A stretch of DNA of 58,517 nucleotides, taken from positions 1,411,952-1,470,468 of the forward strand of contig KV454012.1 in NCBI GenBank assembly GCA_001661245.1, given 5' to 3'. The notes beneath the pieces are model-generated. The model was not told the DNA's origin. It ran no database searches and worked only from the letters and a program-made list of their open reading frames with translations. Of this stretch, positions 219 to 58,457 are shown piece by piece. Source of the stretch: Pachysolen tannophilus NRRL Y-2460 (taxonomy: Eukaryota). Made by a program: the position numbers and the translations under genes. Positions within the stretch are counted from its first letter, which is position 1, and every line of letters starts with the position of its first letter.

Positions 219-1838
219 CTAACGGCCAAAGTACTTGAGTTCAAATGGTCTTGCAACACAATGTCCGATAAATGTGAAAGCAATACATAATTCCCATCCA
301 ATATCACCTCCATAACTACCTATATGTTTTGCTATAGGACCAACATACCAGGTTTCAGACATACCCAAGACTGCACCTGCAATACCACAGCAGAATGCAA
401 ATGTACCTGCAATACCTAAAGGTAATTTATAGAAATTATCACAATCTTCTGGATTATAGCTATCTTCTTTACCTTTTCTAAATACAAAATGTTCAGCCAT
501 AGTCCCACCAATATAAATAGAAACAAAATAACTAATCATATCAAGAAAATTTTCCATTGCTTCTTCAAATACATAATATGCAGGAATACAAATACCTAAC
601 ATAACAAAGTTCCCAACAAAACACCATACAATTCTAGGAATCTTTGCAGAAAGTGGAGAAACAGCTTGAGCACAAATTGAAACAGAATAAGAACTTGGTA
701 AATTATTAGCAATTGTAGATAAACCCAAGATAACACAACAGAATTGGCCAAATCCATGTAAAGAATTTTCAACCAAGATACCGTATATGAGACCACCAAC
801 AGAACTATCATTCCATAATTCCAATAATCTTTCATTTGTTTGAACACCAGTACCACAAGCAGCACCTAACAATAAAGAGAAAAGACATGGGAAAACTATT
901 CCAGTATATACAGCAACAAAGATTTTCCAACCTGGAATGGATGGACTTTTATAAATAACATAATCACCACAACTTGGAACCCAACCAGCGGCAAATCCAA
1001 AAACTAACGAAGCATAAGTTATAGCACCAGAGATTTCAGATTCTCCAATACCCATTGGTGCATTATAAAATTCACCATTAATATGAAGTCTAGCAATAAG
1101 AATCAAAAAAATGATAAAATTTGGAATCCAAGAGTATTTTTCATAAACATGGATATAATCGTAACCTAACAATGCAATAAGTGCAGTGATTACAACTAAG
1201 ATTAAACATCCCAGCCATGGAGGTAATTTTTGGTCATTGACCATACTAAAAAAGAAGAAGTAAAAAACATAGTTAGTAAAAAAAAAATGTTGAATAAAAT
1301 TGGGTTTAAAATTTTTTCTTTTTAAAAAACAAATTTCAACTTACTGAAGTAATTCAACAGCAGGAATAACATTAATTGCACCCCAACCAACACAACTAAT
1401 AATATTTAATACTGAGTAAATCCTTGCACCAAAATTACCAGCCAAAAATCTTGTCAAGATCATTTGTCTAAGACCAAATTTAGCACACAAGACAGAATAA
1501 AGAGCCACTGGTAAAGCACCAATTAAAGTAAAAATGATAATAATGGCAACACTATCATACCAACCTAAACCAAAAGCAGCAGTACTTAATGCCCCAGTAC
1601 TTAAAGCTGCAATAACTAAATTAGAAGATAACCACATAGTACAAGCAGTCACAAGAGAAGTATCGGTACGATCTTCTGGAAGAACTCTTTCAATCCCTCT
1701 TGTTTCCACATCAAACATAGAAGCAAGTCTAGCTGTGAAATTTTTTTTCACATTGACAGTTTCACCAAACTCTTTCTCGGCTGAAACAGCCTCAACATCA
1801 ACATCAATAGCTGATATCTTGTCTTCTTCCAAACTCAT
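219..1838 (-). CDS. FCY2: Purine-cytosine permease (FCY2/NCS1 family), two exons: 1838-1345 and 1245-219
   Basis: ORFs 1341..1838 and 219..1244 join in frame (CA+T=His, giving ...ELLHMVNDQKLPPW...) across an intron with GTAAGT at 1344, TACTAAC at 1278-1272 and TAG ending at 1246. Family motifs: ETRGIERV, TMWLSSN, GLRQMILTRF, CVGWGAIN, WYVGPIA..IG..GGDIG. Paralog assignment (FCY2/21/22/TPN1) is uncertain. Confidence 0.88.
1246..1344 (-). other. Spliceosomal intron (99 nt) in the FCY2-like gene
   Basis: GTAAGT donor, TACTAAC branch point, U-rich tract, TAG acceptor; removal restores the reading frame. Confidence 0.92.
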
Positions 1839-10977: not shown

Positions 10978-12759
10978 ATGAGTGAGATTTCTAGTACTAG
11001 TTCGCGGACTTCTTCGTCATCGAAACTGGTATCTACCAGTAATGTTGCAGGTTCTGAGACTGATCGGGAAAATAATGAAGAGAAATTGGACAGAAGGTCG
11101 TCATCATCTTCATCTATTTCTAGGGTTTCTTTGAAAGATGTTGATGATCCTGAAGCATTTTGTCCAGGTTCAAAGGTAAGAGATGAAGATACATCTGCAC
11201 TGGGTGAATCTCTTTATGATGCTAATAGAACTGTTTCAAGGATATTGACGAATGCAGAAGAAATTGAACTGAATACTGTTAAATGTCAAAATGAAGAATT
11301 ACCATTTGGTATGGGATTTAATAAACCGTTTCCTCCTGAATTACCTGATAAGAAATTATACTCAGTTACATTTGATGGACCTAATGATCCTTTACACCCT
11401 CATAATTGGGCTTGGAGTAAAAAAATTACATTTTTTTTCCTCTTAGTTATGTATACTTTTTCACTTGCATTCTCTTCAGCAGCATATTCTCCTGCTGTAG
11501 ATGTCTTGGCTGAAAAATATCATGTTAATGAAGTTGTTACTACATTAGGTGTTAGTTTATACGTGTTGGGATTTGCTAGTGGTCCTGTCATTTATGCTCC
11601 ATTATCAGAATTATATGGAAGGAAACCAATTTTAATTATTTCTTCATTTTTATTTACAGTTTTCCAATTTGCCGTTGCTACAGCTGAAAATTTACAAACA
11701 ATATTGATTTGTAGATTTTTTGGTTCATTTACAGGATCTTCTGCATTGGTAGTAGTTCCAGCTGCATTTGCAGATATGTTCCCAAATAAATATCGTGGTA
11801 ATGCAATTAATTGTTTTGCTATGGTGGTATTTGTAGGTCCATTGATTGCACCTATTGTTGGTACTTTTATTACAGAAAGTTATTTAGGTTGGAGATGGAC
11901 TTCTTATATTACTGGTATCATGGGAGGTTTTGCTTCTTTATGTATATGTTTATTCTTTGAAGAAACTCATCATCCAATAATATTAGTTAATAAGGCAAGA
12001 TATTTAAGAAGAAGAACAGGTAATTGGGGAATATATGCTCCTCAAGAAGAAGCAACTTTAACTTTTAGAGAAATTCTTGAAAATAATATTTCTAGACCAG
12101 TTAAACTTTTATTTACAGAACCAATTATTTTTTTGTTAAGTATTTATAATGCTTTCATTTATGGAATATTATACTTATTTTTAACTGCATACCCACTTGT
12201 GTTTTATGATGGTTATAAGATGAAAGCAGGTGTTTCCGAATTGCCATATTTGGGTTTAGTTATTGGAATGTTAATTGGTGGGTTATATTGTATGTACGTT
12301 GAAAAAAGTTGTAACGAAAAAATGAAAGCTAATAATAATAAACCTGTTCCAGAAGCCAGATTACCTCCAATCATGGTTGGAGGTATTGCATTTCCAATTG
12401 GTTTATTCTGGTTCACATGGTCAGGTAACTATCATGAGTCAGTACATTGGATGGTTCCAACTGCTTCTGGTCTCTTTTCCGGATTTGGGTTGTTAACAAT
12501 TTTCATTCCTTCATTGAATTATATTGTTGATTCTTATTTAATTTTAGCAGCTTCTGCTTTGGCTGCAAATACTTTAGTTAGATCAGCTTTTGCAACTGCA
12601 TTCCCTCTTTTCGCAAAATTCATGTTTGTCGGAATGGGTACTAATTGGGCAGGTTTGTTGATTGGTTTAGTCGGTGTTGCATTAGCTCCAGTTCCATTTG
12701 CATTCTATATATATGGTAAAAGAATAAGAGAAAAGTCTAAATATGCTTTTGTTTTATGA
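10978..12759 (+). CDS. TPO1: MFS drug:H+ antiporter, DHA1 family (Tpo1/Flu1-like)
   Basis: FDGPNDPLHPHNW, GPVIYAPLSELYGRK, YLGWRW, EETHHPIIL, LLFTEPI and PEARLPP motifs; about 12 hydrophobic segments. Confidence 0.85.
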   Translation: MSEISSTSSRTSSSSKLVSTSNVAGSETDRENNEEKLDRRSSSSSSISRVSLKDVDDPEAFCPGSKVRDEDTSALGESLYDANRTVSRILTNAEEIELNTVKCQNEELPFGMGFNKPFPPELPDKKLYSVTFDGPNDPLHPHNWAWSKKITFFFLLVMYTFSLAFSSAAYSPAVDVLAEKYHVNEVVTTLGVSLYVLGFASGPVIYAPLSELYGRKPILIISSFLFTVFQFAVATAENLQTILICRFFGSFTGSSALVVVPAAFADMFPNKYRGNAINCFAMVVFVGPLIAPIVGTFITESYLGWRWTSYITGIMGGFASLCICLFFEETHHPIILVNKARYLRRRTGNWGIYAPQEEATLTFREILENNISRPVKLLFTEPIIFLLSIYNAFIYGILYLFLTAYPLVFYDGYKMKAGVSELPYLGLVIGMLIGGLYCMYVEKSCNEKMKANNNKPVPEARLPPIMVGGIAFPIGLFWFTWSGNYHESVHWMVPTASGLFSGFGLLTIFIPSLNYIVDSYLILAASALAANTLVRSAFATAFPLFAKFMFVGMGTNWAGLLIGLVGVALAPVPFAFYIYGKRIREKSKYAFVL

Positions 12760-12970
12760 ATTTCCATTTTTTTTTTTTTTAAATCATTTTAAATAATTTC
12801 TTTTATAATCGCTTAATACAATTTACTTTTTAATAATATTCTTTATTAACTATAGTAAGGAAATGAAAGATAGAAAAGTTGAAAAAAAAAAAAAAAATAG
12901 TATTATTAAATTTATTTATATCCAAAATATCCAATTTGTATTATACTGTTTGCTATATCTTTATATCTAT

Positions 12971-14188
12971 CTATTTTTTGTCAAATATCTTGTTTCCAAG
13001 TTTATAAACTTGTTTCACGTTTCCATTTATATCTAAAATTGTTAAATCTGCATCACATCCAGGGTTGAGGTACCCTTTCTTTTTTTCTAGACCTAAAGCA
13101 CTAGAAGGGTGATTTGTTACACATTTGACTGCTGTGGCTAAATCCAATGAAGACCATTGCATCAAATTTCTTAAACATTGAGGTAAATCTGTAGCTGAAC
13201 CTGCAATAGTGTCTGTTCCCTTCATATGTAAATAATTGTCAGTTTTCTCTATAAACCTACCTTCCCATTGATAGATTCCATTTGGTAAGCCTATGAGCAT
13301 CATTGCATCTGTTACCAATATACACTTGTCTTTTGAAGTTTGGTATGCAAAATTTACTGCAGCAGGATGAACATGTATACCATCAGCAACAATTCCAAAA
13401 AATGGATTTTGCAAACCGTTTGAATCAGCTGTGGATGGCATACCAACTAGTCCTACTACGCCAGGTTCCCTATGATGAGGTTGAGGCATAGCATTATACA
13501 AATGTGTTATCATTGTAGCACCTCTCTTCAATGCATCTTTAGCTTCTTCATACGTTGCCATTGTATGACCAATTGAATAAGTTACACCTCTTTTAGTCAA
13601 TTCCGGTATACATTCCATGATACCTTCAACTTCTGGAGCTGCAGTCACTATAGATATATTATCAAATGCAGCTTCACCTCCATATACTTCAATCATTGTA
13701 TCAAAACCATCTTTAGCAGTTCTAATGGCCGTGGGAATATGACAACCTTTCTTTTGAGGTGAAAGAAAAGGTCCCTCAATATGAGCACCTAAACTATCTG
13801 TTGTAGTTGAATTTCTTGATTTCTTCAAGATTGGTAAGGCAACTTTGTAAATTTCAGGGAAAGTTGATGGTAAAGTTGGACATATACTGGTAACACCAGT
13901 TTGAATCATTTCTTTCATCATCTTCCCATAATTCTTACTATACTCTTTTGAATCCTGAGAACAGGAAAAATCAAACCCAAAGGCACCATTGATCTGAATG
14001 TCAATAAAACCAGGTGCAACAATTAAATTTTGTAAATCAACCGTATCATAAAAAATTTCATCTTCTAAACTAGGTGCAGAAACAATAATACCTTCTTCTA
14101 CATTGACCCATAATTCACTATTAGATATCAATTTTCCCTTATCGCATAACGAACAATTGATAAACTTTAATAATTTTTTAACAGTCAT
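12971..14188 (-). CDS. DAC1: N-acetylglucosamine-6-phosphate deacetylase (NagA family)
   Basis: PGFIDIQINGAFG, GAHIEGPF, GHT, THLYNAM, ADGIHVHP, LVTDAM and IAGS motifs intact. First ATG is at 14188. Confidence 0.95.
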   Translation of the reverse strand: MTVKKLLKFINCSLCDKGKLISNSELWVNVEEGIIVSAPSLEDEIFYDTVDLQNLIVAPGFIDIQINGAFGFDFSCSQDSKEYSKNYGKMMKEMIQTGVTSICPTLPSTFPEIYKVALPILKKSRNSTTTDSLGAHIEGPFLSPQKKGCHIPTAIRTAKDGFDTMIEVYGGEAAFDNISIVTAAPEVEGIMECIPELTKRGVTYSIGHTMATYEEAKDALKRGATMITHLYNAMPQPHHREPGVVGLVGMPSTADSNGLQNPFFGIVADGIHVHPAAVNFAYQTSKDKCILVTDAMMLIGLPNGIYQWEGRFIEKTDNYLHMKGTDTIAGSATDLPQCLRNLMQWSSLDLATAVKCVTNHPSSALGLEKKKGYLNPGCDADLTILDINGNVKQVYKLGNKIFDKK

Positions 14189-14800
14189 TTTCAAATCAAG
14201 GCAAACAACTGAGTTACAAATTCGAAATAAAGAATTCTCTTTTCATCTACAATTATATATATATATATATATATATAAATATATATTCGTAGATACTGGC
14301 TAACGGTATGCATGTGCCGGTCGGTTGGTTGTATTAAAAAATGCAACCCAAAAAAGAGTATTAAATATTTCAATGTTACATTTTGGGTGATGTTACATTT
14401 CGGTAAGTACTTTGAATGGCACTTCCCATGGCACTTTCTATGATATTTCCGATAGCAGGTCATAATCTATCTTTACTTATCTCATTATAAAGAGAAATCA
14501 CACTATATAAAGAATAGAAAGTTGTATTAATATTATTTATTAAGAAGTTTGCAGCTTGTTTTTTCTGTTTTTTTTTTTACCAGAAAATACTGTGATATCG
14601 TGAGATAGTAGGTGATGTTATAGATCAAGTCATCTATCAATCTCTATACGGATATCAAGCTTCCTTTTTGTCAAACTTTAATATAGAAGAGTGTTAGATA
14701 TATAACGATTTTTTGATTTTGTTTTTTCTTTTTGGATTTAGTATTCACATTTTATAAATATTTTACAACATATAACAGATTTTTAAGTTAGCAAAGAAAT

Positions 14801-16417
14801 ATGTCGGGTTCTGGGCTAGATTTAAATGGTTGGGAAGATTGTTTGAAAGGGTTGAATCAAGTTTCAAATGCATTAGTATCACCTGCCAGTCTTACTGTAT
14901 CAGCAAACTCTGATGATTTATCCGATTCGAATGCGATATCAAGATCTTCAACTAATATTTCATTGAATTTAACTGAAGCAGAATTAGAATTACAAGATTT
15001 GAAAATTGGTTTAATACAACAAAATTTTGATGATATAACTAAAGAATTTGAAGAATGTTTAATAGATGCTATTTATGAATCTAAAAATTCAATGATACCG
15101 TCATGTAATATGATTCCTAAAGGTCATGAAGTTGGTAGGTATTTGATTATTGATATTGGAGGTTCTACATTAAGAATTGCCATTGTTGATTTAACAGGTG
15201 ATAAATCTACAAGTAAGTCACTTATAGAAGAATCTTGGAAAATATTACAAAAAGGAAAAATTATTGATGCTTTTTTCTTTGAAAATATTCTGCAAAAAGC
15301 AAAAATAATTTTAGAAAAATCCAATTTTTTCAATAATCATGAGAAAATAAATGTTGGTATTACATGGAGTTTCCCAATAGTTCAAAAATCACCAAGTTCT
15401 GCATTAATTTCAGATCTTGGGAAAGGTTTTACCGTGTTAGAAGATTTTAAAAATAAAGATTTAAAACAATTATTTGAAAAATATTTTAAAAAACAAGATA
15501 TTGATATTGATGTGCTTGCTATAGTTAATGATTCAATTTCTGTATTTATTGCAGGTTCTTATTTTGATAATTGTAAGCTAGCATTGGTTTTAGGAACAGG
15601 TCTAAATGCAAGTTTTTCTGTAAAACGTGATATGTTAAGCAATAGGAAAAAAAAATTGATAATTTCACTAAATAATAAAGAAAATGAAGAAGTTTTATTA
15701 AATTCAGAACTTTCGCTTTTTGGATATAACATTCAAAAATATATTACAAGATTTGATGAGGAAATGTGTTCGACATGGAAATCGAAATTTGATGAGTTTG
15801 AAAAAGAAAATTTACCTCACATGTCTTCAATTTATGGTGTTTTCCAACCACTGGAAATGCTAACTTCTGGTAGATATGTTCCAGAAATTTCAAGGTTAAT
15901 GATGGTAGATTTGATTAAAAGGAAAAAATTATTTTGTGGGAACTTACCAAAAAATTTTAATAGAGAATATGAAATTTCTGGGAAATTAATTTGTGATTTT
16001 TATGAATCTAGATCAACTGATAGCTCATTAAAGATTTTTAGTAATACATTTCCAGTTGATGAAAATGATTTACCCTTACATGTTACAGAAAAGGATATTG
16101 AAACAATGAAAGAAATTATCAACTTGGTCATCTCTAGAGCAGCTATATTATTTACTTCATTATTAGTTGCTATAATAAGAGTACTAAAGATAAATGAAGA
16201 AAACGATCAGAATCAAGTTTTAAATATTGGATACGTTGGATCTGTTCTACAATATTTCACCAGCTATAGGAGAAAATTGGAAAGTTGTCTACTTTCAGAA
16301 CATGAAAAAGGAAACATCCCAAAAATACATTTTCAATATGTCGATAATAGTAGCATATATGGTGCTGCAATTGCAGCTTCTATTGTCGAATACGCTGCAA
16401 CACATGAAACAAACTGA
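14801..16417 (+). CDS. HXK1: N-acetylglucosamine kinase (hexokinase family, C. albicans HXK1/NAG5 type)
   Basis: Hexokinase motifs IDIGGSTLRIA, GITWSFPI, NDS, LGTGLNA, TSGRY; divergently transcribed from DAC1. Confidence 0.85.
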   Translation: MSGSGLDLNGWEDCLKGLNQVSNALVSPASLTVSANSDDLSDSNAISRSSTNISLNLTEAELELQDLKIGLIQQNFDDITKEFEECLIDAIYESKNSMIPSCNMIPKGHEVGRYLIIDIGGSTLRIAIVDLTGDKSTSKSLIEESWKILQKGKIIDAFFFENILQKAKIILEKSNFFNNHEKINVGITWSFPIVQKSPSSALISDLGKGFTVLEDFKNKDLKQLFEKYFKKQDIDIDVLAIVNDSISVFIAGSYFDNCKLALVLGTGLNASFSVKRDMLSNRKKKLIISLNNKENEEVLLNSELSLFGYNIQKYITRFDEEMCSTWKSKFDEFEKENLPHMSSIYGVFQPLEMLTSGRYVPEISRLMMVDLIKRKKLFCGNLPKNFNREYEISGKLICDFYESRSTDSSLKIFSNTFPVDENDLPLHVTEKDIETMKEIINLVISRAAILFTSLLVAIIRVLKINEENDQNQVLNIGYVGSVLQYFTSYRRKLESCLLSEHEKGNIPKIHFQYVDNSSIYGAAIAASIVEYAATHETN

Positions 16418-44297: not shown

Positions 44298-44334
<37 letters not shown>

Positions 44335-44584
44335 NNNNNNNNNNNNNNNNNNNNNNNNNNNNNNNNNNNNNNNNNNNNNNNNNNNNNNNNNNNNNNNNNN
44401 NNNNNNNNNNNNNNNNNNNNNNNNNNNNNNNNNNNNNNNNNNNNNNNNNNNNNNNNNNNNNNNNNNNNNNNNNNNNNNNNNNNNNNNNNNNNNNNNNNNN
44501 NNNNNNNNNNNNNNNNNNNNNNNNNNNNNNNNNNNNNNNNNNNNNNNNNNNNNNNNNNNNNNNNNNNNNNNNNNNNNNNNNNNN
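44335..44584. other. Assembly gap (N run)
   Basis: N run flanked by poly-T/poly-A on both sides. Confidence 1.
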
Positions 44585-44625
<41 letters not shown>

Positions 44626-46394: not shown

Positions 46395-47705
46395 TCAATA
46401 AACAGAATGGAAACGTTTGTTCATGATGCGAGTTTGTTTTCTAACTCTTCTGCTTCTTATCTTTTGGTCAGGTCTAGTGTTTCTCCAGGAATCCACTGCC
46501 CTTTGTATTAATCCTCTTTGATTTCTAATGATAGGATTCAAATATGCCAACTTCCATCCAATATAATTACATTCTCTTTCGTATTTTCCTCTATTACCTT
46601 TATACTCTTCAGGGGGGACCATTGCACCTGGGTATATGCAGTTTTCTGCTATGAAATGATCACCGTAATCAAGAGTATCTTTGAAATCTATCTTTGGACA
46701 TTTCAAAGTGAATTTTCTTATGATTTTTTTCTTTGAATAATAAAAGGTCAAATTCTCTTCACCTGTTAATTCATCTCTAGTTAATTCTGGTGCCGCAGCA
46801 GGTATAGGACCTGGTTGAGAAGTATATTTTTCCAGGTTATCTGAAATATTACCAACAGATTTTGATTTGCGATGACTAATGTCTTTAAATTGAACACCAC
46901 TTTCAGTATCGTATTCTGGAGTTTCTAACGGTGAAGTTAAATAGTTTTGCTTGAATATAAGAGATTCATAACTCAATGAATTTCTAAAAGTGGATCCTTG
47001 TTGAGCTGCTGCTGCTGCTGTCATACTTGTAGTTGCTCCAATTTGTTGATTATTTTCGACCAAAGATGAAGATGGGAAGTAAGGGGAAACAGGAGTCGTA
47101 ACTTCTTCTAATTGTCTCATGCCGTTATATGATTCATCTTGGTCATTAGTTGTATTTTGGAAATTCATTACTTGTGCTGGAAATACATTAGGATTTATCT
47201 GTTGTGGTAATTGATCATGCTGAGGCTGCGTGAAAGGGTATTGCATCAGATGTTGCGGCAGCGGCACCAGTGCCTGTGACAGTTGCGTCGATGGCTGTAA
47301 CTGTTGACCTGAAACTAATAAGTTATTATATATGGACATAGTTTGTTGTTGTTGTTGTTGTTGTTGAGACCCCATAGATAGGAACCCATCTTGTGCACTC
47401 ATCAGTGGTGCTGGCACTCGATCCATGAGGAAACTACTTTCAGCTGTCTTTCCCTGCGAGAAACCCGCATTTTCTTCAGGTAAAAATTGTTGAGAATTTC
47501 TAGGTGTTATGTAGTTGTATGAATTTCCAGGTAGAACATAGAGTTGTTGTTGATTATATAGATTCTGTGATTGGAAAAATTGTTGTTGTTGCTGTTGTTG
47601 TTGTTGTTGTTTTGGTTGGCCCAACGAAAAACTTGGATTTGAAGCATCTATATTGGTCAAAAGGAAATCCGGACTTTCAAAGGTCGAAATATGATTAGCA
47701 TTCAT
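46395..47705 (-). CDS. Gln-rich protein with a conserved-looking fungal C-terminal domain of unknown function (putative transcription regulator)
   Basis: 436-aa ORF with poly-Q N-half. C-terminal NCIYP.A..P.EEYKGNR.KYE.ECN.IGW.LA.LNP.IR..RGLIQRAVDSWRN followed by basic RSRRVRK. Confidence 0.85.
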   Translation of the reverse strand: MNANHISTFESPDFLLTNIDASNPSFSLGQPKQQQQQQQQQQFFQSQNLYNQQQLYVLPGNSYNYITPRNSQQFLPEENAGFSQGKTAESSFLMDRVPAPLMSAQDGFLSMGSQQQQQQQQTMSIYNNLLVSGQQLQPSTQLSQALVPLPQHLMQYPFTQPQHDQLPQQINPNVFPAQVMNFQNTTNDQDESYNGMRQLEEVTTPVSPYFPSSSLVENNQQIGATTSMTAAAAAQQGSTFRNSLSYESLIFKQNYLTSPLETPEYDTESGVQFKDISHRKSKSVGNISDNLEKYTSQPGPIPAAAPELTRDELTGEENLTFYYSKKKIIRKFTLKCPKIDFKDTLDYGDHFIAENCIYPGAMVPPEEYKGNRGKYERECNYIGWKLAYLNPIIRNQRGLIQRAVDSWRNTRPDQKIRSRRVRKQTRIMNKRFHSVY

Positions 47706-50937: not shown

Positions 50938-51324
50938 ATGGCTGCTAATCAATTAAAAGGTACGGATGAAGTAGATACTTCCAAGTTATCTCCGCAAGAG
51001 CTTAAAATATATAAATTATATGGGAAGTTGCCGTCTAGGTCAGATTTACTTCATTCGAAATTAAAAGATCGGAAATATTTTGATTCTGGAGATTATGCAA
51101 TGAGTAAAGCAGGCGTTATTAAAAATGAAGGACCACTTGAGAATTTAAAGCATCCAGATTTGGAGAAAATTCAAAGAATTAATAGAAACTCTGTAAGTGG
51201 TAGTAATAGTAGAGGAAGCATATGTGGAGTTATAGGTTCTCAAAATGGAGGTAATGTTATGTTTAGTGGGAAATCCAATTTGGAGAAAGAGGTTAAAGGT
51301 GAAGATAACAATGAAGGCAAATAA
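50938..51324 (+). CDS. IGO1: Endosulfine (Igo1/Igo2, ENSA/ARPP19 family)
   Basis: LSPQELKIYKLYGKLP and RKYFDSGDYAM (Rim15/Greatwall site). First ATG is at 50938. Linked to NSG and PGA1 as in S. cerevisiae. Confidence 0.92.
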   Translation: MAANQLKGTDEVDTSKLSPQELKIYKLYGKLPSRSDLLHSKLKDRKYFDSGDYAMSKAGVIKNEGPLENLKHPDLEKIQRINRNSVSGSNSRGSICGVIGSQNGGNVMFSGKSNLEKEVKGEDNNEGK

Positions 51325-51853: not shown

Positions 51854-53023
51854 TCATTTGAACCTAATAATACTTGGTTTTGCATTTCTAGCATTTCTAG
51901 AACCAAATAAAAATCCTAAGCTAAAACTAATTGAAGCTATAATAATTGATAAACAAGTAATTTGAAATAAGACATTATTTAATTTTTGAACGCTGCTTTC
52001 ATTATCATTATTTTTATTTTTATTTTTATGTTTATCTAAATTTTTTCTTTTTAAGACTCCTTTACTACCATTTCTATCATTAATATTATTCAATTTTTTT
52101 GACATACGATATGGTGATAATGATAAAGAATTTGATCTAAACCCATCATCTGTAACAGTGTAATCGCTATCACATATATCATTTAATATATGTTTACTAC
52201 CTGAAAATTTATTATTTTTCATAGAGGTATTATTAACCACTGTTGATGATGCTATTGTTGAATTAGAAAGCCTTCTTAAATTTGTCTTATATTGTTTAGT
52301 AGTGTTAGTGTTATTAGTAGTATTGGTAATGTTGTTTGTGTTTGTTTTCTTTGAAGAAGAAGTCAATAGTATTGTGGTTAAAGAATTATCAATATTAATT
52401 TCACTTGATTTTTTTCTTCCATCATCATAATGATTATCATCATGATATTCATTTTGATATTCATCATCACTATCCTTAAATAACCAATTTTGCAAATTTT
52501 TCTTTTTCTTTTTCCCCTTTTTATCTACCGCCAATGCCAGAATCTCACCCAAACCCGCACTATCATTCGACTCATCATCACCAGTCAATAAACCAGCATT
52601 ATCATCCGTATCTAAATAGTTGAAATATGACGCGACACGCGAATAATCCCCATAACTAATTCTATCTCTAGCTGTTAAATCAATCCATGAATCTTCTTCA
52701 GGCAATCCAGCGCCAGTACCAGTACCACTACTAGTACCACTACTAGTACCATTATTACTATTACTACTATTATTATTATTATTATTTTTGTTGTTGTTGT
52801 TTTTACTGGTACTAGTAGTAGTACTCTTGGTATTTAATTTCAAACCGCTCTTCCCATCTTCTTCACTTTGTAATGCCGCCTCTTCTTCCTCGTTCAATGA
52901 ATAACTTTGTTCCAAAAGTGATTGATCAGTCAAGTATACTTCTTTATTCGCGTTCTGAGTCCAATTTTTCAAATATTGAGAATTGTAACCTTGATTCTTA
53001 TTGCCGCCACTACTATTAACCAT
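51854..53023 (-). CDS. Uncharacterised low-complexity protein with a single C-terminal TM helix (tail-anchored)
   Basis: 389-aa ORF from ATG 53023, rich in N/S/D/K. TM VLFQITCLSIIIASISFSLGFLFG followed by a basic tail; EEDSWIDL motif. Confidence 0.8.
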   Translation of the reverse strand: MVNSSGGNKNQGYNSQYLKNWTQNANKEVYLTDQSLLEQSYSLNEEEEAALQSEEDGKSGLKLNTKSTTTSTSKNNNNKNNNNNNSSNSNNGTSSGTSSGTGTGAGLPEEDSWIDLTARDRISYGDYSRVASYFNYLDTDDNAGLLTGDDESNDSAGLGEILALAVDKKGKKKKKNLQNWLFKDSDDEYQNEYHDDNHYDDGRKKSSEINIDNSLTTILLTSSSKKTNTNNITNTTNNTNTTKQYKTNLRRLSNSTIASSTVVNNTSMKNNKFSGSKHILNDICDSDYTVTDDGFRSNSLSLSPYRMSKKLNNINDRNGSKGVLKRKNLDKHKNKNKNNDNESSVQKLNNVLFQITCLSIIIASISFSLGFLFGSRNARNAKPSIIRFK

Positions 53024-53788: not shown

Positions 53789-54826
53789 ATGTCGGGGATA
53801 TTGAATCATAACAATGATTCAATAGTTAGTTTGATGAAACCGACTTTATATCAGATATATGGGAATGATGAAGTTGATTTGGATAATGAGAATAATGATA
53901 TTTATGTTAATTTGAATGAGAATATTAATAGGCATAATATTAATGCTGATAATGAAGGTTATTTTTTAGTCAATAGACATTTAAAGAAGAATGAAAAAAG
54001 ACCTTTATTACAAAAAATTATTATTACAATGTTAAAACTTTTAGTATTAGCAATAATGGGTAATTTATATTTTAAACTTTTAGAATCAATTAATTATAAT
54101 GATGAAGGTAAATCAACAAAATTACCAAACTTGAATGATTTTAAAATATTATTTTTATTTTCACATTTTTTAGGAAAATTTAATTTAATTAATTTTAAAA
54201 ATGAAAAATTTGGTGTTGCTCTTAATTGTTCATTAGAAGGAATACTGTTGGGATTAATCCAACCAGTGGTATTAGATAATTTATTAAAATTGGTTTTTGA
54301 AAAAAAACAAAACAAAACAAATTCTACATTGCACATTAAAATTCCAACTGGAACAGTATCAGCTGAAACAGTTATTTCTGAAGCTGAAAATTTATCAAGT
54401 GGAAATTTAAAAGTGGAAAAAAAATTATCAAAAAATAACAACAGTATTTCCAACAGTAAGAATTTGGCATCTTTTATAAATAAAAATTATGAAACAATTT
54501 TGAGATCAACAGTTGCAGTTATTGGTATTTCTTATGGTTTGAAAAAAATAGAATGGGAATCTTCCCTTCAAGCTTCTATTTCATGGTCATTACTAAACCC
54601 ATGTTTATGGCTATTGTTAGATGGAACTTGGTATGGATTCTTAAGCAATTCGTTTGTAAGTTGTACCATGATGGTCTTGGGTCTTGTCTTTGGAGATACT
54701 AACAAGAACCTAGTCGATTTATTTGATCTCGAAGAATTGAGCAAAATCTTATGGTTAGGTAGCTTTTCGTTTATTGGTATGTTGATTTTTAGCAAAGTTG
54801 GAAGATACTTGTTTGGTCGGGATTGA
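53789..54826 (+). CDS. NSG2: INSIG-family protein (Nsg1/Nsg2)
   Basis: S.VSL.KP.LY.IY, LRS..A.IGISYG.KKIEW.SSLQAS..W.LLNP.LWL.LDGT, GRYLF; neighbour of IGO and PGA1. Confidence 0.88.
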   Translation: MSGILNHNNDSIVSLMKPTLYQIYGNDEVDLDNENNDIYVNLNENINRHNINADNEGYFLVNRHLKKNEKRPLLQKIIITMLKLLVLAIMGNLYFKLLESINYNDEGKSTKLPNLNDFKILFLFSHFLGKFNLINFKNEKFGVALNCSLEGILLGLIQPVVLDNLLKLVFEKKQNKTNSTLHIKIPTGTVSAETVISEAENLSSGNLKVEKKLSKNNNSISNSKNLASFINKNYETILRSTVAVIGISYGLKKIEWESSLQASISWSLLNPCLWLLLDGTWYGFLSNSFVSCTMMVLGLVFGDTNKNLVDLFDLEELSKILWLGSFSFIGMLIFSKVGRYLFGRD

Positions 54827-57039: not shown

Positions 57040-57111
57040 ATGCCATGGATTCTTAGTAGGTTACTATTAGGTGGGAATAGTACTGAAGCCGATACCCAAG
57101 TAAGTCTTGAG

Positions 57112-57143
<32 letters not shown>

Positions 57144-57780
57144 AGAAGTTCAACAAGGTCAAACAGAACATGTAGATATAGATTTACAGCAACAAGAAGA
57201 TAGAGTACTTGCACAATTAATATTACGTTTTTTGCAAACTGGACATGATCAATTAGAACAAGAGCAAAGGCGGCAAATCACAAGCAACAATACTAGTGAA
57301 GAAGATGCTTTAAATGCAGAAATAGATAGAGTCTTTAGAGTTCATAATAATGCTCATAGATATGGTTCATTTTTTTTACATTTGATCTTTTCAGCATGTC
57401 TGATTTTATTATTAGGATCTTTTTTAAAAATCACATTTTCATTTCTGACTTTCAGCGCTGATATAACAAAAGATTTAGATGATTTTACTTTTATTTTTGA
57501 TAATAATGGTACAGAAAAATTGGATGGTTCTAGGTTAATTGTTAAATTTAATAAAATAGTAGAAGAAGAATTGAATAGGTATTCTTTCCATGATTTTAAA
57601 GATTCAAGTAAATACTTGACTTTATTATTATTCTATATATATACAGGTATCACCTCTTTTATACTGCTTATTTTCTTCACAGTGGGGACAACTTGTTTAA
57701 CCTTAATCTTGGGTAAAAGATGGTATTGTCTAGATAAGTTCTTACTAACAGTCACTTCAGAATCGAACGGGATTTTTTAG
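57040..57780 (+). CDS. Membrane protein, possibly Gld1/Ypr109w-like (Dsc E3 ligase complex)
   Basis: Acidic N-terminus and hydrophobic segments. Recalled similarity to Ypr109w at LK..FS..TFS, L..KF..I, CL.....RW/RY and terminal G(I/V)F. Confidence 0.55.
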
Positions 57781-58061: not shown

Positions 58062-58457
58062 ATGTCTCATCATCATATACTGGCACTGATACCTTCATCT
58101 GTGAATTTTTATGGTGACTCAAGATTAGGATCCAAGTATCAATCGATCATAAGTTTGTTCAAGTATTCGATTTTATTTGTTTTAGGGTGTATAATCTTGT
58201 CAAGGTTAGATAGATCTGGTGACGGATTAAGATCCTTTGTACAATTTTTATGGAAATATTTAAATTCCTCGAATCCCTTGATGGATTATTTAATAATGCA
58301 AAATGATAGATTTGTTGGGAATAGTCACAATCATAATCAAAATCAATTATTTGGAGAGTTAATATTTGATCCTGGTGATAGGTTTCAAACTTTCAATAGT
58401 ATGGCTCTATGTTTAATAACTTTTTTCGGTTTAGGGTTCGTTGGGTTGCTAAGTTGA
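58062..58457 (+). CDS. Small hypothetical membrane protein with two hydrophobic segments
   Basis: 131-aa ATG ORF in good context (GAAATGTCT), more GC-rich than its flanks; no family recognised. Confidence 0.55.
   Translation: MSHHHILALIPSSVNFYGDSRLGSKYQSIISLFKYSILFVLGCIILSRLDRSGDGLRSFVQFLWKYLNSSNPLMDYLIMQNDRFVGNSHNHNQNQLFGELIFDPGDRFQTFNSMALCLITFFGLGFVGLLS

What the first reader, a model, noticed from the sequence alone, without database searches (positions are those of the whole stretch)
51854..53023. Orphan tail-anchored protein with an acidic SWxxL motif and TM GxxxG: candidate BNIP3/NIX-like autophagy receptor
Seen: a mostly disordered 389-aa protein with EEDSWIDL (52699-52676), a typical Atg8-interacting motif of W-x-x-L preceded by acidic and phosphorylatable residues. 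It has one C-terminal TM containing GFLFG (GxxxG) and a short basic tail (SRNARNAKPSIIRFK), typical of mitochondrial or peroxisomal tail anchors. Established: BNIP3/NIX have this layout (SWVEL LIR, C-terminal GxxxG dimerising TM). Inference: an undescribed yeast mitophagy, pexophagy or ER-phagy receptor that I cannot recognise as Atg32. It lies between IGO and NSG, which are adjacent in S. cerevisiae. Short blocks (SW.., SLTT.L, ISFS.G...G) recall an uncharacterised filamentous-ascomycete family, from memory only.
Basis: partly seen in the sequence, partly recalled or inferred. Interest (0 to 1): 0.7.

Follow-up and report, generated by a model that had tools for sequence, protein, structure and literature searches.

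The report
Yeast tail-anchored autophagy receptor candidate
A yeast gene with only one known relative encodes a floppy, membrane-anchored protein. It keeps a docking motif for the autophagy protein Atg8 unchanged while nearly everything around it has diverged, so it may be an undescribed tag that marks an organelle for recycling; this has not been tested in the lab.

Summary
The ORF, the motif, the single C-terminal membrane helix and the basic tail are all as described. The host reads CUG as Ala. Searches up to 1.84 billion representatives found one relative (a 4-member cluster, about 196 aa) and no paralog. EDSWIDL is the only exact word of four or more residues shared between the linkers (1 of 5000 shuffles). 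Best reading (0.5): a lineage-restricted tail-anchored receptor that binds Atg8. The organelle is open: helix hydropathy is ER-like by a yeast rule, the tail charge mitochondrial or peroxisomal. It is not a BNIP3, Atg32 or Atg43 member by the features tested. A language-model search ranked BNIP3 clusters first among named families, at a score (0.77) that is a lead only. The recalled filamentous-fungus family was not found, and the gene is not a simple insertion between IGO and NSG. The scan noted similar layouts in two other fungal genomes, with no sequence look-alike.

The parts
51854..53023 (-). Whole coding sequence, 389 aa, intronless as read; single copy in the genome
   Evidence: homolog covers both ends; no paralog
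52892..52987 (-). Conserved N-terminal block, residues 13-44; first half reads as an amphipathic helix (hydrophobic moment about 0.5 in both proteins); probable partner-binding site (inference)
   Evidence: 22 of 32 identical to the relative; low-confidence helix in both models
52676..52699 (-). EEDSWIDL, residues 109-116: candidate Atg8-interacting motif (W113, L116); S112 fits a CK2-type S-x-x-D pattern
   Evidence: EDSWIDL exact in the relative; only W-type motif in either protein
52235..52276 (-). Weakly conserved Ser/Thr block, residues 250-263, opening with R-R-x-S (PKA-type consensus, recalled)
   Evidence: RRLS here, RRSS in the relative, aligned
51902..51973 (-). Single membrane helix, residues 351-374, with S366-x3-G370-x3-G374 small-residue stripe
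   Evidence: 22 of 31 identical over residues 348-378
51857..51901 (-). Basic C-terminal tail, residues 375-389, net +5 (relative: 13 residues, +3)
52538..52540 (-). CTG codon read as Ala (residue 162) under NCBI table 26
50938..51324 (+). Neighbour: endosulfine (IGO); context only
   Evidence: PF04667, E 9e-28
53789..54826 (+). Neighbour: INSIG family (NSG), divergently transcribed from the gene; context only
   Evidence: PF07281, E 4e-23

Best explanation
A lineage-restricted, tail-anchored selective-autophagy receptor or adaptor. Shown in sequence: a long low-complexity N-terminal region, one C-terminal membrane helix with a small-residue stripe, a short basic tail and three conserved blocks. 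Inferred steps: (1) the helix and tail insert after translation with the N-terminus in the cytosol; (2) EDSWIDL docks into the two hydrophobic pockets of Atg8, helped by the acidic residues and possibly by phosphorylation of S112; (3) the N-terminal block binds a second factor (Atg11, an Atg18/Atg21-type propeller or a regulator); (4) the S-x3-G-x3-G face dimerises or clusters the protein; (5) the organelle is tied to the growing autophagosome. Target organelle: mitochondrion or peroxisome about 55%, ER or nuclear envelope about 45% (judgement).
For: EDSWIDL is the only exact word of four or more residues shared between linkers of 301 and 117 residues; 1 of 5000 shuffles reach 7. It is the only W-type motif in either protein. 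The linkers around it differ greatly in length while order is kept, as expected for motifs on a disordered tether. The motif resembles proven ones listed in PMC7615515 (BNIP3 and NIX SWVEL, OPTN EDSFVEI, TEX264 SSFEEL). Anchor plus disordered region plus a motif far from the membrane is the general receptor plan (PMC12431859); the distance is 234 and 108 residues. The ten nearest named clusters by language-model features for the relative share the BNIP3 family (score 0.77, 155 of 256 features, lead only). Atg8 and Atg11 are in the genome. PMC7609059 argues that lineages recruit different membrane proteins as receptors.
Against: Conservation rests on two sequences (one here, one cluster of near-identical members), and the shuffle test was made after the motif was seen. 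Acidic aromatic-x-x-aliphatic motifs are common: 3-4 of 20 window ORFs. The best conserved non-membrane part is the N-terminal block, which matches nothing known, so the main function may lie there. The cytosolic region has net charge 0 here (-5 in the relative), whereas PMC12431859 reports net negative charge as a shared feature; the first 200 residues are -14. No I/V-L-S Atg11-type motif (recalled) is shared. An atlas score under 0.8 is reached by about a third of shuffled proteins, and all-ten agreement also by a third.
Confidence: 0.5

Rival explanations
1. A tail-anchored adaptor or membrane-contact tether with no receptor role. The N-terminal helix and the acidic Trp motif bind other partners (trafficking, lipid-transfer or signalling proteins), or the motif only lets the protein itself be removed by autophagy.
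For: The N-terminal block is four times longer than the motif and as well kept as the membrane helix. A conserved R-R-x-S site suggests kinase control. Helix hydropathy of about 2.0 is above the 1.75 that marks yeast ER anchors in PMC5450235. Net cytosolic charge is not negative in this protein.
Against: The one linker word under strict constraint is exactly the acidic-Ser-W-x-x-L pattern; no known non-autophagy family matches.
Confidence: 0.3
2. A very diverged ortholog of an already named yeast protein (Atg32, Atg39, Atg36/Atg30 type, or a disordered tail-anchored protein) that current profiles cannot link.
For: Yeast receptors diverge fast; Atg32 is reported across budding yeasts including Pichia (PMC8700587). 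I could not locate this genome's own Atg32: none of the 11 ORFs listed around PAN6 resembles it, but synteny there is not kept.
Against: Atg32 has a folded pseudo-receiver region (200-341) and a C-terminal intermembrane-space part; this protein has neither a predicted folded domain nor more than 15 residues after the helix. No PDB sequence matches at E up to 10. An exhaustive profile search gave no third cluster.
Confidence: 0.11
3. A true, very distant homolog of animal BNIP3/NIX retained in one yeast lineage (and perhaps in filamentous fungi beyond detection).
For: Same plan: S-W-x-x-L motif, disordered region, C-terminal L-G-x3-G helix, short tail; the relative is about 196 aa. BNIP3 clusters are the top three rows and all ten best named hits in the atlas.
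Against: No PF06553 match at E up to 10 for three sequences nor a candidate in the genome (controls did not ring). BNIP3 domains were found only in animals in PMC5526904. The Ser eight residues before the first Gly is Ile here. The range found is two clusters, which would need many losses. Shared layout alone can explain the atlas ranking.
Confidence: 0.07
4. Not a real gene, or a wrongly called frame.
For: No expression data were seen; composition is low-complexity.
Against: A relative matches at E 4e-14 with three collinear blocks from the start to the stop; the relative's matching start and stop bracket the same blocks.
Confidence: 0.02

Closest known systems
BNIP3 / NIX (BNIP3L), animal mitophagy and pexophagy receptors, PF06553
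   Same: Tail anchor; S-W-x-x-L motif in a disordered cytosolic region; L-G-x3-G in the helix; short tail; nearest named family in language-model features (lead only).
   Different: No Pfam match; the Ser used for the dimer hydrogen bond is missing in register and the helix has no His (His partner recalled); the conserved non-motif block lies before the motif, whereas the MER of BNIP3/NIX is a separate region whose place after the LIR is recalled; family known from animals only.
Atg32 (budding-yeast mitophagy receptor)
   Same: Single membrane helix, cytosolic N-terminus, S-W-x-x-aliphatic motif (Atg32 motif recalled).
   Different: No pseudo-receiver domain, no intermembrane-space domain, no shared I/V-L-S phospho-motif for Atg11; different gene neighbourhood (recalled for S. 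cerevisiae).
Atg43 (fission-yeast mitophagy receptor, PF08589)
   Same: Lineage-specific Atg8 motif in a poorly conserved N-terminal region on a single-pass anchor.
   Different: No PF08589 match; Atg43 has a C-terminal region conserved across fungi with a growth function; here the family is two clusters.
Organellophagy receptors in general (anchor plus disordered region plus LIR; TEX264, SEC62, FUNDC1, Atg39)
   Same: Architecture and motif-to-membrane distance.
   Different: Net cytosolic charge is 0 in this protein; an extra conserved N-terminal helix; no sequence kinship.

Membership tests
BNIP3/NIX | Match to the BNIP3 domain (PF06553) | tested here: not met
   No hit at E up to 10 for P0002, P0005, P0006; 0 candidates in the genome (no positive control rang)
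BNIP3/NIX | Ser-preceded W-x-x-L LIR in the cytosolic region | tested here: met
   SWIDL in both proteins against SWVEL (PMC7615515 table); pattern only
BNIP3/NIX | Single C-terminal helix with G-x3-G (L179-G180) | tested here: met
   L369-G370-x3-G374, kept in the relative (PMC10883272)
BNIP3/NIX | Ser172-type hydrogen-bond residue eight positions before the first Gly | tested here: not met
   I362 here and Ile in the relative; Ser lies at 359, 364, 366, 368 instead; no His in the helix
BNIP3/NIX | Minimal essential region that binds WIPI2 | not testable with these tools
   Described in PMC12669772; no BNIP3 sequence could be fetched for a direct comparison
Atg32 | Folded pseudo-receiver domain before the helix | tested here: not met
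   Residues 59-303 under pLDDT 50 with no fold, same for the relative; no PDB sequence hit; shallow alignments weaken this
Atg32 | C-terminal intermembrane-space region after the helix | tested here: not met
   Tail is 15 residues (13 in the relative) (PMC8700587)
Atg32 | CK2-phosphorylated Atg11-binding motif near the Atg8 motif | tested here: inconclusive
   No shared I/V-L-S/T motif (consensus recalled); the N-terminal block could serve instead
Atg43 | Conserved C-terminal ATG43 domain (PF08589) | tested here: not met
   No hit; none in the genome (no positive control rang)
Transmembrane selective-autophagy receptor (functional class) | Membrane anchor plus cytosolic disordered region carrying a LIR/AIM well away from the membrane | tested here: met
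   prediction from sequence
Transmembrane selective-autophagy receptor (functional class) | Net negative charge of the disordered region | tested here: inconclusive
   0 here, -5 in the relative; -14 over residues 1-200
Transmembrane selective-autophagy receptor (functional class) | Motif-dependent Atg8 binding and a cargo-specific turnover defect on deletion | not testable with these tools
   Needs bench assays

The most novel reading that the evidence does not exclude
The protein is a fungal counterpart of BNIP3/NIX by descent: a compact tail-anchored, dimerising receptor that budding yeasts were thought to lack, using its N-terminal block to recruit the autophagy machinery without the Atg32-type Atg11 site. 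That would move the origin of BNIP3-type mitophagy to before the animal-fungal split and point to unrecognised members in fungi for which no receptor of this type is described.
Probability: 0.07. Interest if true: 0.8.

Novelty: new variant of a known kind. Interest (0 to 1): 0.45.

Why it matters
Organelle-autophagy receptors are known from few fungi, and they are hard to find because they share motifs, not folds. A tail-anchored receptor of the BNIP3 plan in a budding yeast would be a new yeast receptor family. It would test the idea that lineages build receptors anew by adding an Atg8 motif to a membrane anchor (PMC7609059), and the 196-residue relative is a minimal construct to test in S. 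cerevisiae. The reach is limited for now: two clusters, a non-model yeast and no functional data.

Tried and rejected
Complex prediction of the genome's Atg8 with residues 1-140, both without alignments: no answer (score 0.01 in two runs, controls not folded); it carries no weight either way. Homolog searches: whole protein, 2 hits of 6661 candidates; two-row profile, 2 of 7999 scored; residues 340-389, 1 of 7; exhaustive profile, 2 of 1.84 billion at E up to 0.001; metagenome scan, 0 of 210 pattern matches confirmed. Short-motif relatives could sit below these thresholds. Atlas with the full protein: three unnamed clusters, mostly Ascomycota, at 0.86-0.87, no sequences given, so the recalled filamentous family could not be tested that way; structure hits TM 0.27 or less. 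PDB sequence searches: 0 for the profile, 1 chance RecA hit for the tail region. Fold searches were not run because both models are low-confidence. MoAti1 was checked and rejected: it is a SUN-family protein. Synteny: no tblastn match to either protein at E up to 1 in 80 IGO loci; 5 of 80 hold NSG, and I read 3 of these 5; 7 of 414 ORFs had a single C-terminal hydrophobic window and none resembled the query (intron-split genes are invisible to this scan). The 464-aa ORF beside NSG in L005 is unrelated (hhalign probability 0.2%). Looking for Atg32 beside PAN6 was uninformative. The weak third match in the own genome (E 0.13) lies in a WD40 protein and is chance. Literature: nine searches listed no paper on this protein or on a fungal BNIP3-type receptor; the library lacks most subscription papers and I read no supplements.

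Full report
Observation. The frame 51854-53023 on the minus strand is open and gives 389 residues. EEDSWIDL sits at residues 109-116, nt 52699-52676. One hydrophobic segment, core 351-374, holds GFLFG and is followed by 15 residues of net charge +5. An AlphaFold2 model from a 2-row alignment has pLDDT under 50 for 299 of 389 residues and helices only at 15-52 and 340-379. Pfam finds no family at or near a cut-off. The neighbours are endosulfine (IGO), INSIG (NSG) and Pga1.

Genetic code. The database copy of the protein has Ala where the standard code gives Leu162, and table 26 reproduces it exactly. In the nearby ECM14-like gene, 2 of 6 CTG sites face Ala in an ortholog and none faces Leu; three of the six lie in poorly aligned stretches. 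The host is a CUG-Ala yeast. The motifs are unaffected.

Chance. Taken alone the motif is weak. Acidic aromatic-x-x-aliphatic patterns appear in 4.6% and 5.2% of 20,000 composition shuffles (18% for a looser, recalled pattern), and in 3, 4 and 14 of the 20 window ORFs of 200 aa or more, this one included.

Relatives. One other cluster was found, P0003 (E 4e-14), with four members that differ only at their ends. Its probable start is the Met just before the first shared block, giving 196 residues (inference). A two-row profile, a search with residues 340-389, an exhaustive profile search of 1.84 billion representatives and a metagenome scan found nothing more. The own genome holds no paralog. 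It is unsupported, not excluded.

What is conserved. Three blocks in the same order: residues 13-44 (22 of 32 identical; first half amphipathic), EDSWIDL (7 of 7) and residues 348-378 (22 of 31). Between the first and last block the linkers are 301 and 117 residues long, and the only exact shared words of four or more residues are parts of EDSWIDL; 1 of 5000 shuffles of the relative's linker reached 7 and 29 reached 6. The test was made after the motif was seen and rests on two sequences. A weaker Ser/Thr block opens with R-R-x-S in both. SLTT is not kept.

Targeting. Helix hydropathy is 2.05 and 1.99 (1.76-2.16 over the boundaries tried); tails are +5 and +3; the 25 residues before the helix are +4 and +5. 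PMC5450235 (passages) says yeast ER anchors have hydropathy above 1.75, and gives mammalian mean tail charges of 6.0 (peroxisome), 2.5 (shared), 1.1 (mitochondria) and 0.2 (ER). The two signals disagree, so the organelle is open.

Gene order. Here IGO and NSG lie on the same strand with the gene between them on the other. Of 80 IGO loci from metagenomes, 5 hold NSG and none has a tblastn match to either protein at E up to 1. In the three I read, NSG is convergent with IGO: adjacent in L005, and separated by two other genes in L042 and L051. The adjacency in S. cerevisiae is recalled. The locus is rearranged and the gene is restricted to this lineage at this place; synteny gives no name.

Mechanism. 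The best-supported reading is a tail-anchored receptor or adaptor for selective autophagy (0.5). The sequence shows anchor, disordered tether and constrained motif. The motif resembles proven ones tabulated in PMC7615515 (passages), where acidic or phosphorylated residues before the aromatic residue strengthen binding. PMC12431859 (abstract and sections 16 and 17) defines receptors as anchor plus disordered region with net negative charge and a LIR more than about 10 residues from the membrane. The distance is met (234 and 108), the charge only partly (0 and -5; -14 over the first 200 residues). Atg8 and Atg11 are present in the genome. Insertion, Atg8 binding, the partner of the N-terminal block, dimerisation and cargo are all inferred. 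The main rival (0.3) is an adaptor or tether whose function lies in the N-terminal block.

Comparison with known families. BNIP3/NIX: same plan, and for residues 77-272 of the relative the ten best named atlas clusters share the BNIP3 family (score 0.77, 155 of 256 features). The tool calls this a lead only, reached by about a third of shuffled proteins, and I restricted that call to named clusters. Against membership: no PF06553 match; Ile where BNIP3 has the hydrogen-bonding Ser172, eight residues before Gly180 (PMC10883272, passages); and an HMM survey that found the domain only in animals (PMC5526904, passages). The WIPI2-binding region (PMC12669772, passages) could not be compared. Atg32: no pseudo-receiver domain, no intermembrane-space region, no shared Atg11-type motif (PMC8700587, passages); whether the genome has its own Atg32 is unresolved. 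Atg43: no PF08589 match (PMC7609059, passages). MoAti1 is a SUN protein (PMC10938464, first part of the text). Two reviews (PMC9980689 and PMC13757524, passages) name no such fungal receptor. It may work like BNIP3; it is not filed as one.

Earlier notes of the scan. No look-alike by sequence or place. Two notes describe membrane proteins with Atg8-type motifs in other fungal genomes; I did not test them and do not count them as support.

Verdict. A real, undescribed two-cluster protein family with a constrained Atg8-type motif on a tail anchor: a sound and cheaply testable receptor candidate, narrow in range and without functional data. Interest 0.45; new variant of a known kind. The bold case, descent shared with BNIP3/NIX, has probability about 0.07 and interest 0.8.

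Noticed in passing
window 52538-52540; L086 2007-3428: The genome reads CTG as Ala (table 26), so standard-code translations of this window carry wrong leucines.
   Followed up: partly
L005 9846-11240 (-): A 464-aa ORF between NSG and a WSS1-like gene in another yeast: acidic N-terminal half with an S-D-F-E-F-I Atg8-type motif and several hydrophobic segments. Unrelated to the finding; another possible membrane-bound receptor.
   Followed up: partly
L042 7826-8308 (+); L051 8810-9331 (+): A short ORF next to IGO that looks like Atg10 (resemblance recalled, not scanned), followed by a complex I subunit-like gene, between IGO and NSG.
   Followed up: no
window 219-1244 and 1341-1838 (-): Two ORFs 96 bases apart that read like the two halves of one purine-cytosine permease (recalled): a frameshift, sequencing error or pseudogene.
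   Followed up: no
window 10978-16417: An MFS transporter, an N-acetylglucosamine-6-phosphate deacetylase-like and a hexokinase-like ORF side by side, like the known yeast GlcNAc cluster (recalled, not scanned).
   Followed up: no
window 46395-47705 (-): A 436-aa Gln-rich ORF with a basic, ordered-looking C-terminal region and no Pfam match at E up to 1.
   Followed up: no
window 57040-57780 (+) and 58062-58457 (+): Two membrane-protein ORFs with no Pfam family over cut-off; the first sits where ASI2 is expected beside PGA1 (recalled), and an ECM14-like gene follows beyond the window.
   Followed up: partly
window about 44330-44590: A run of N (assembly gap) that produces a spurious ORF.
   Followed up: no
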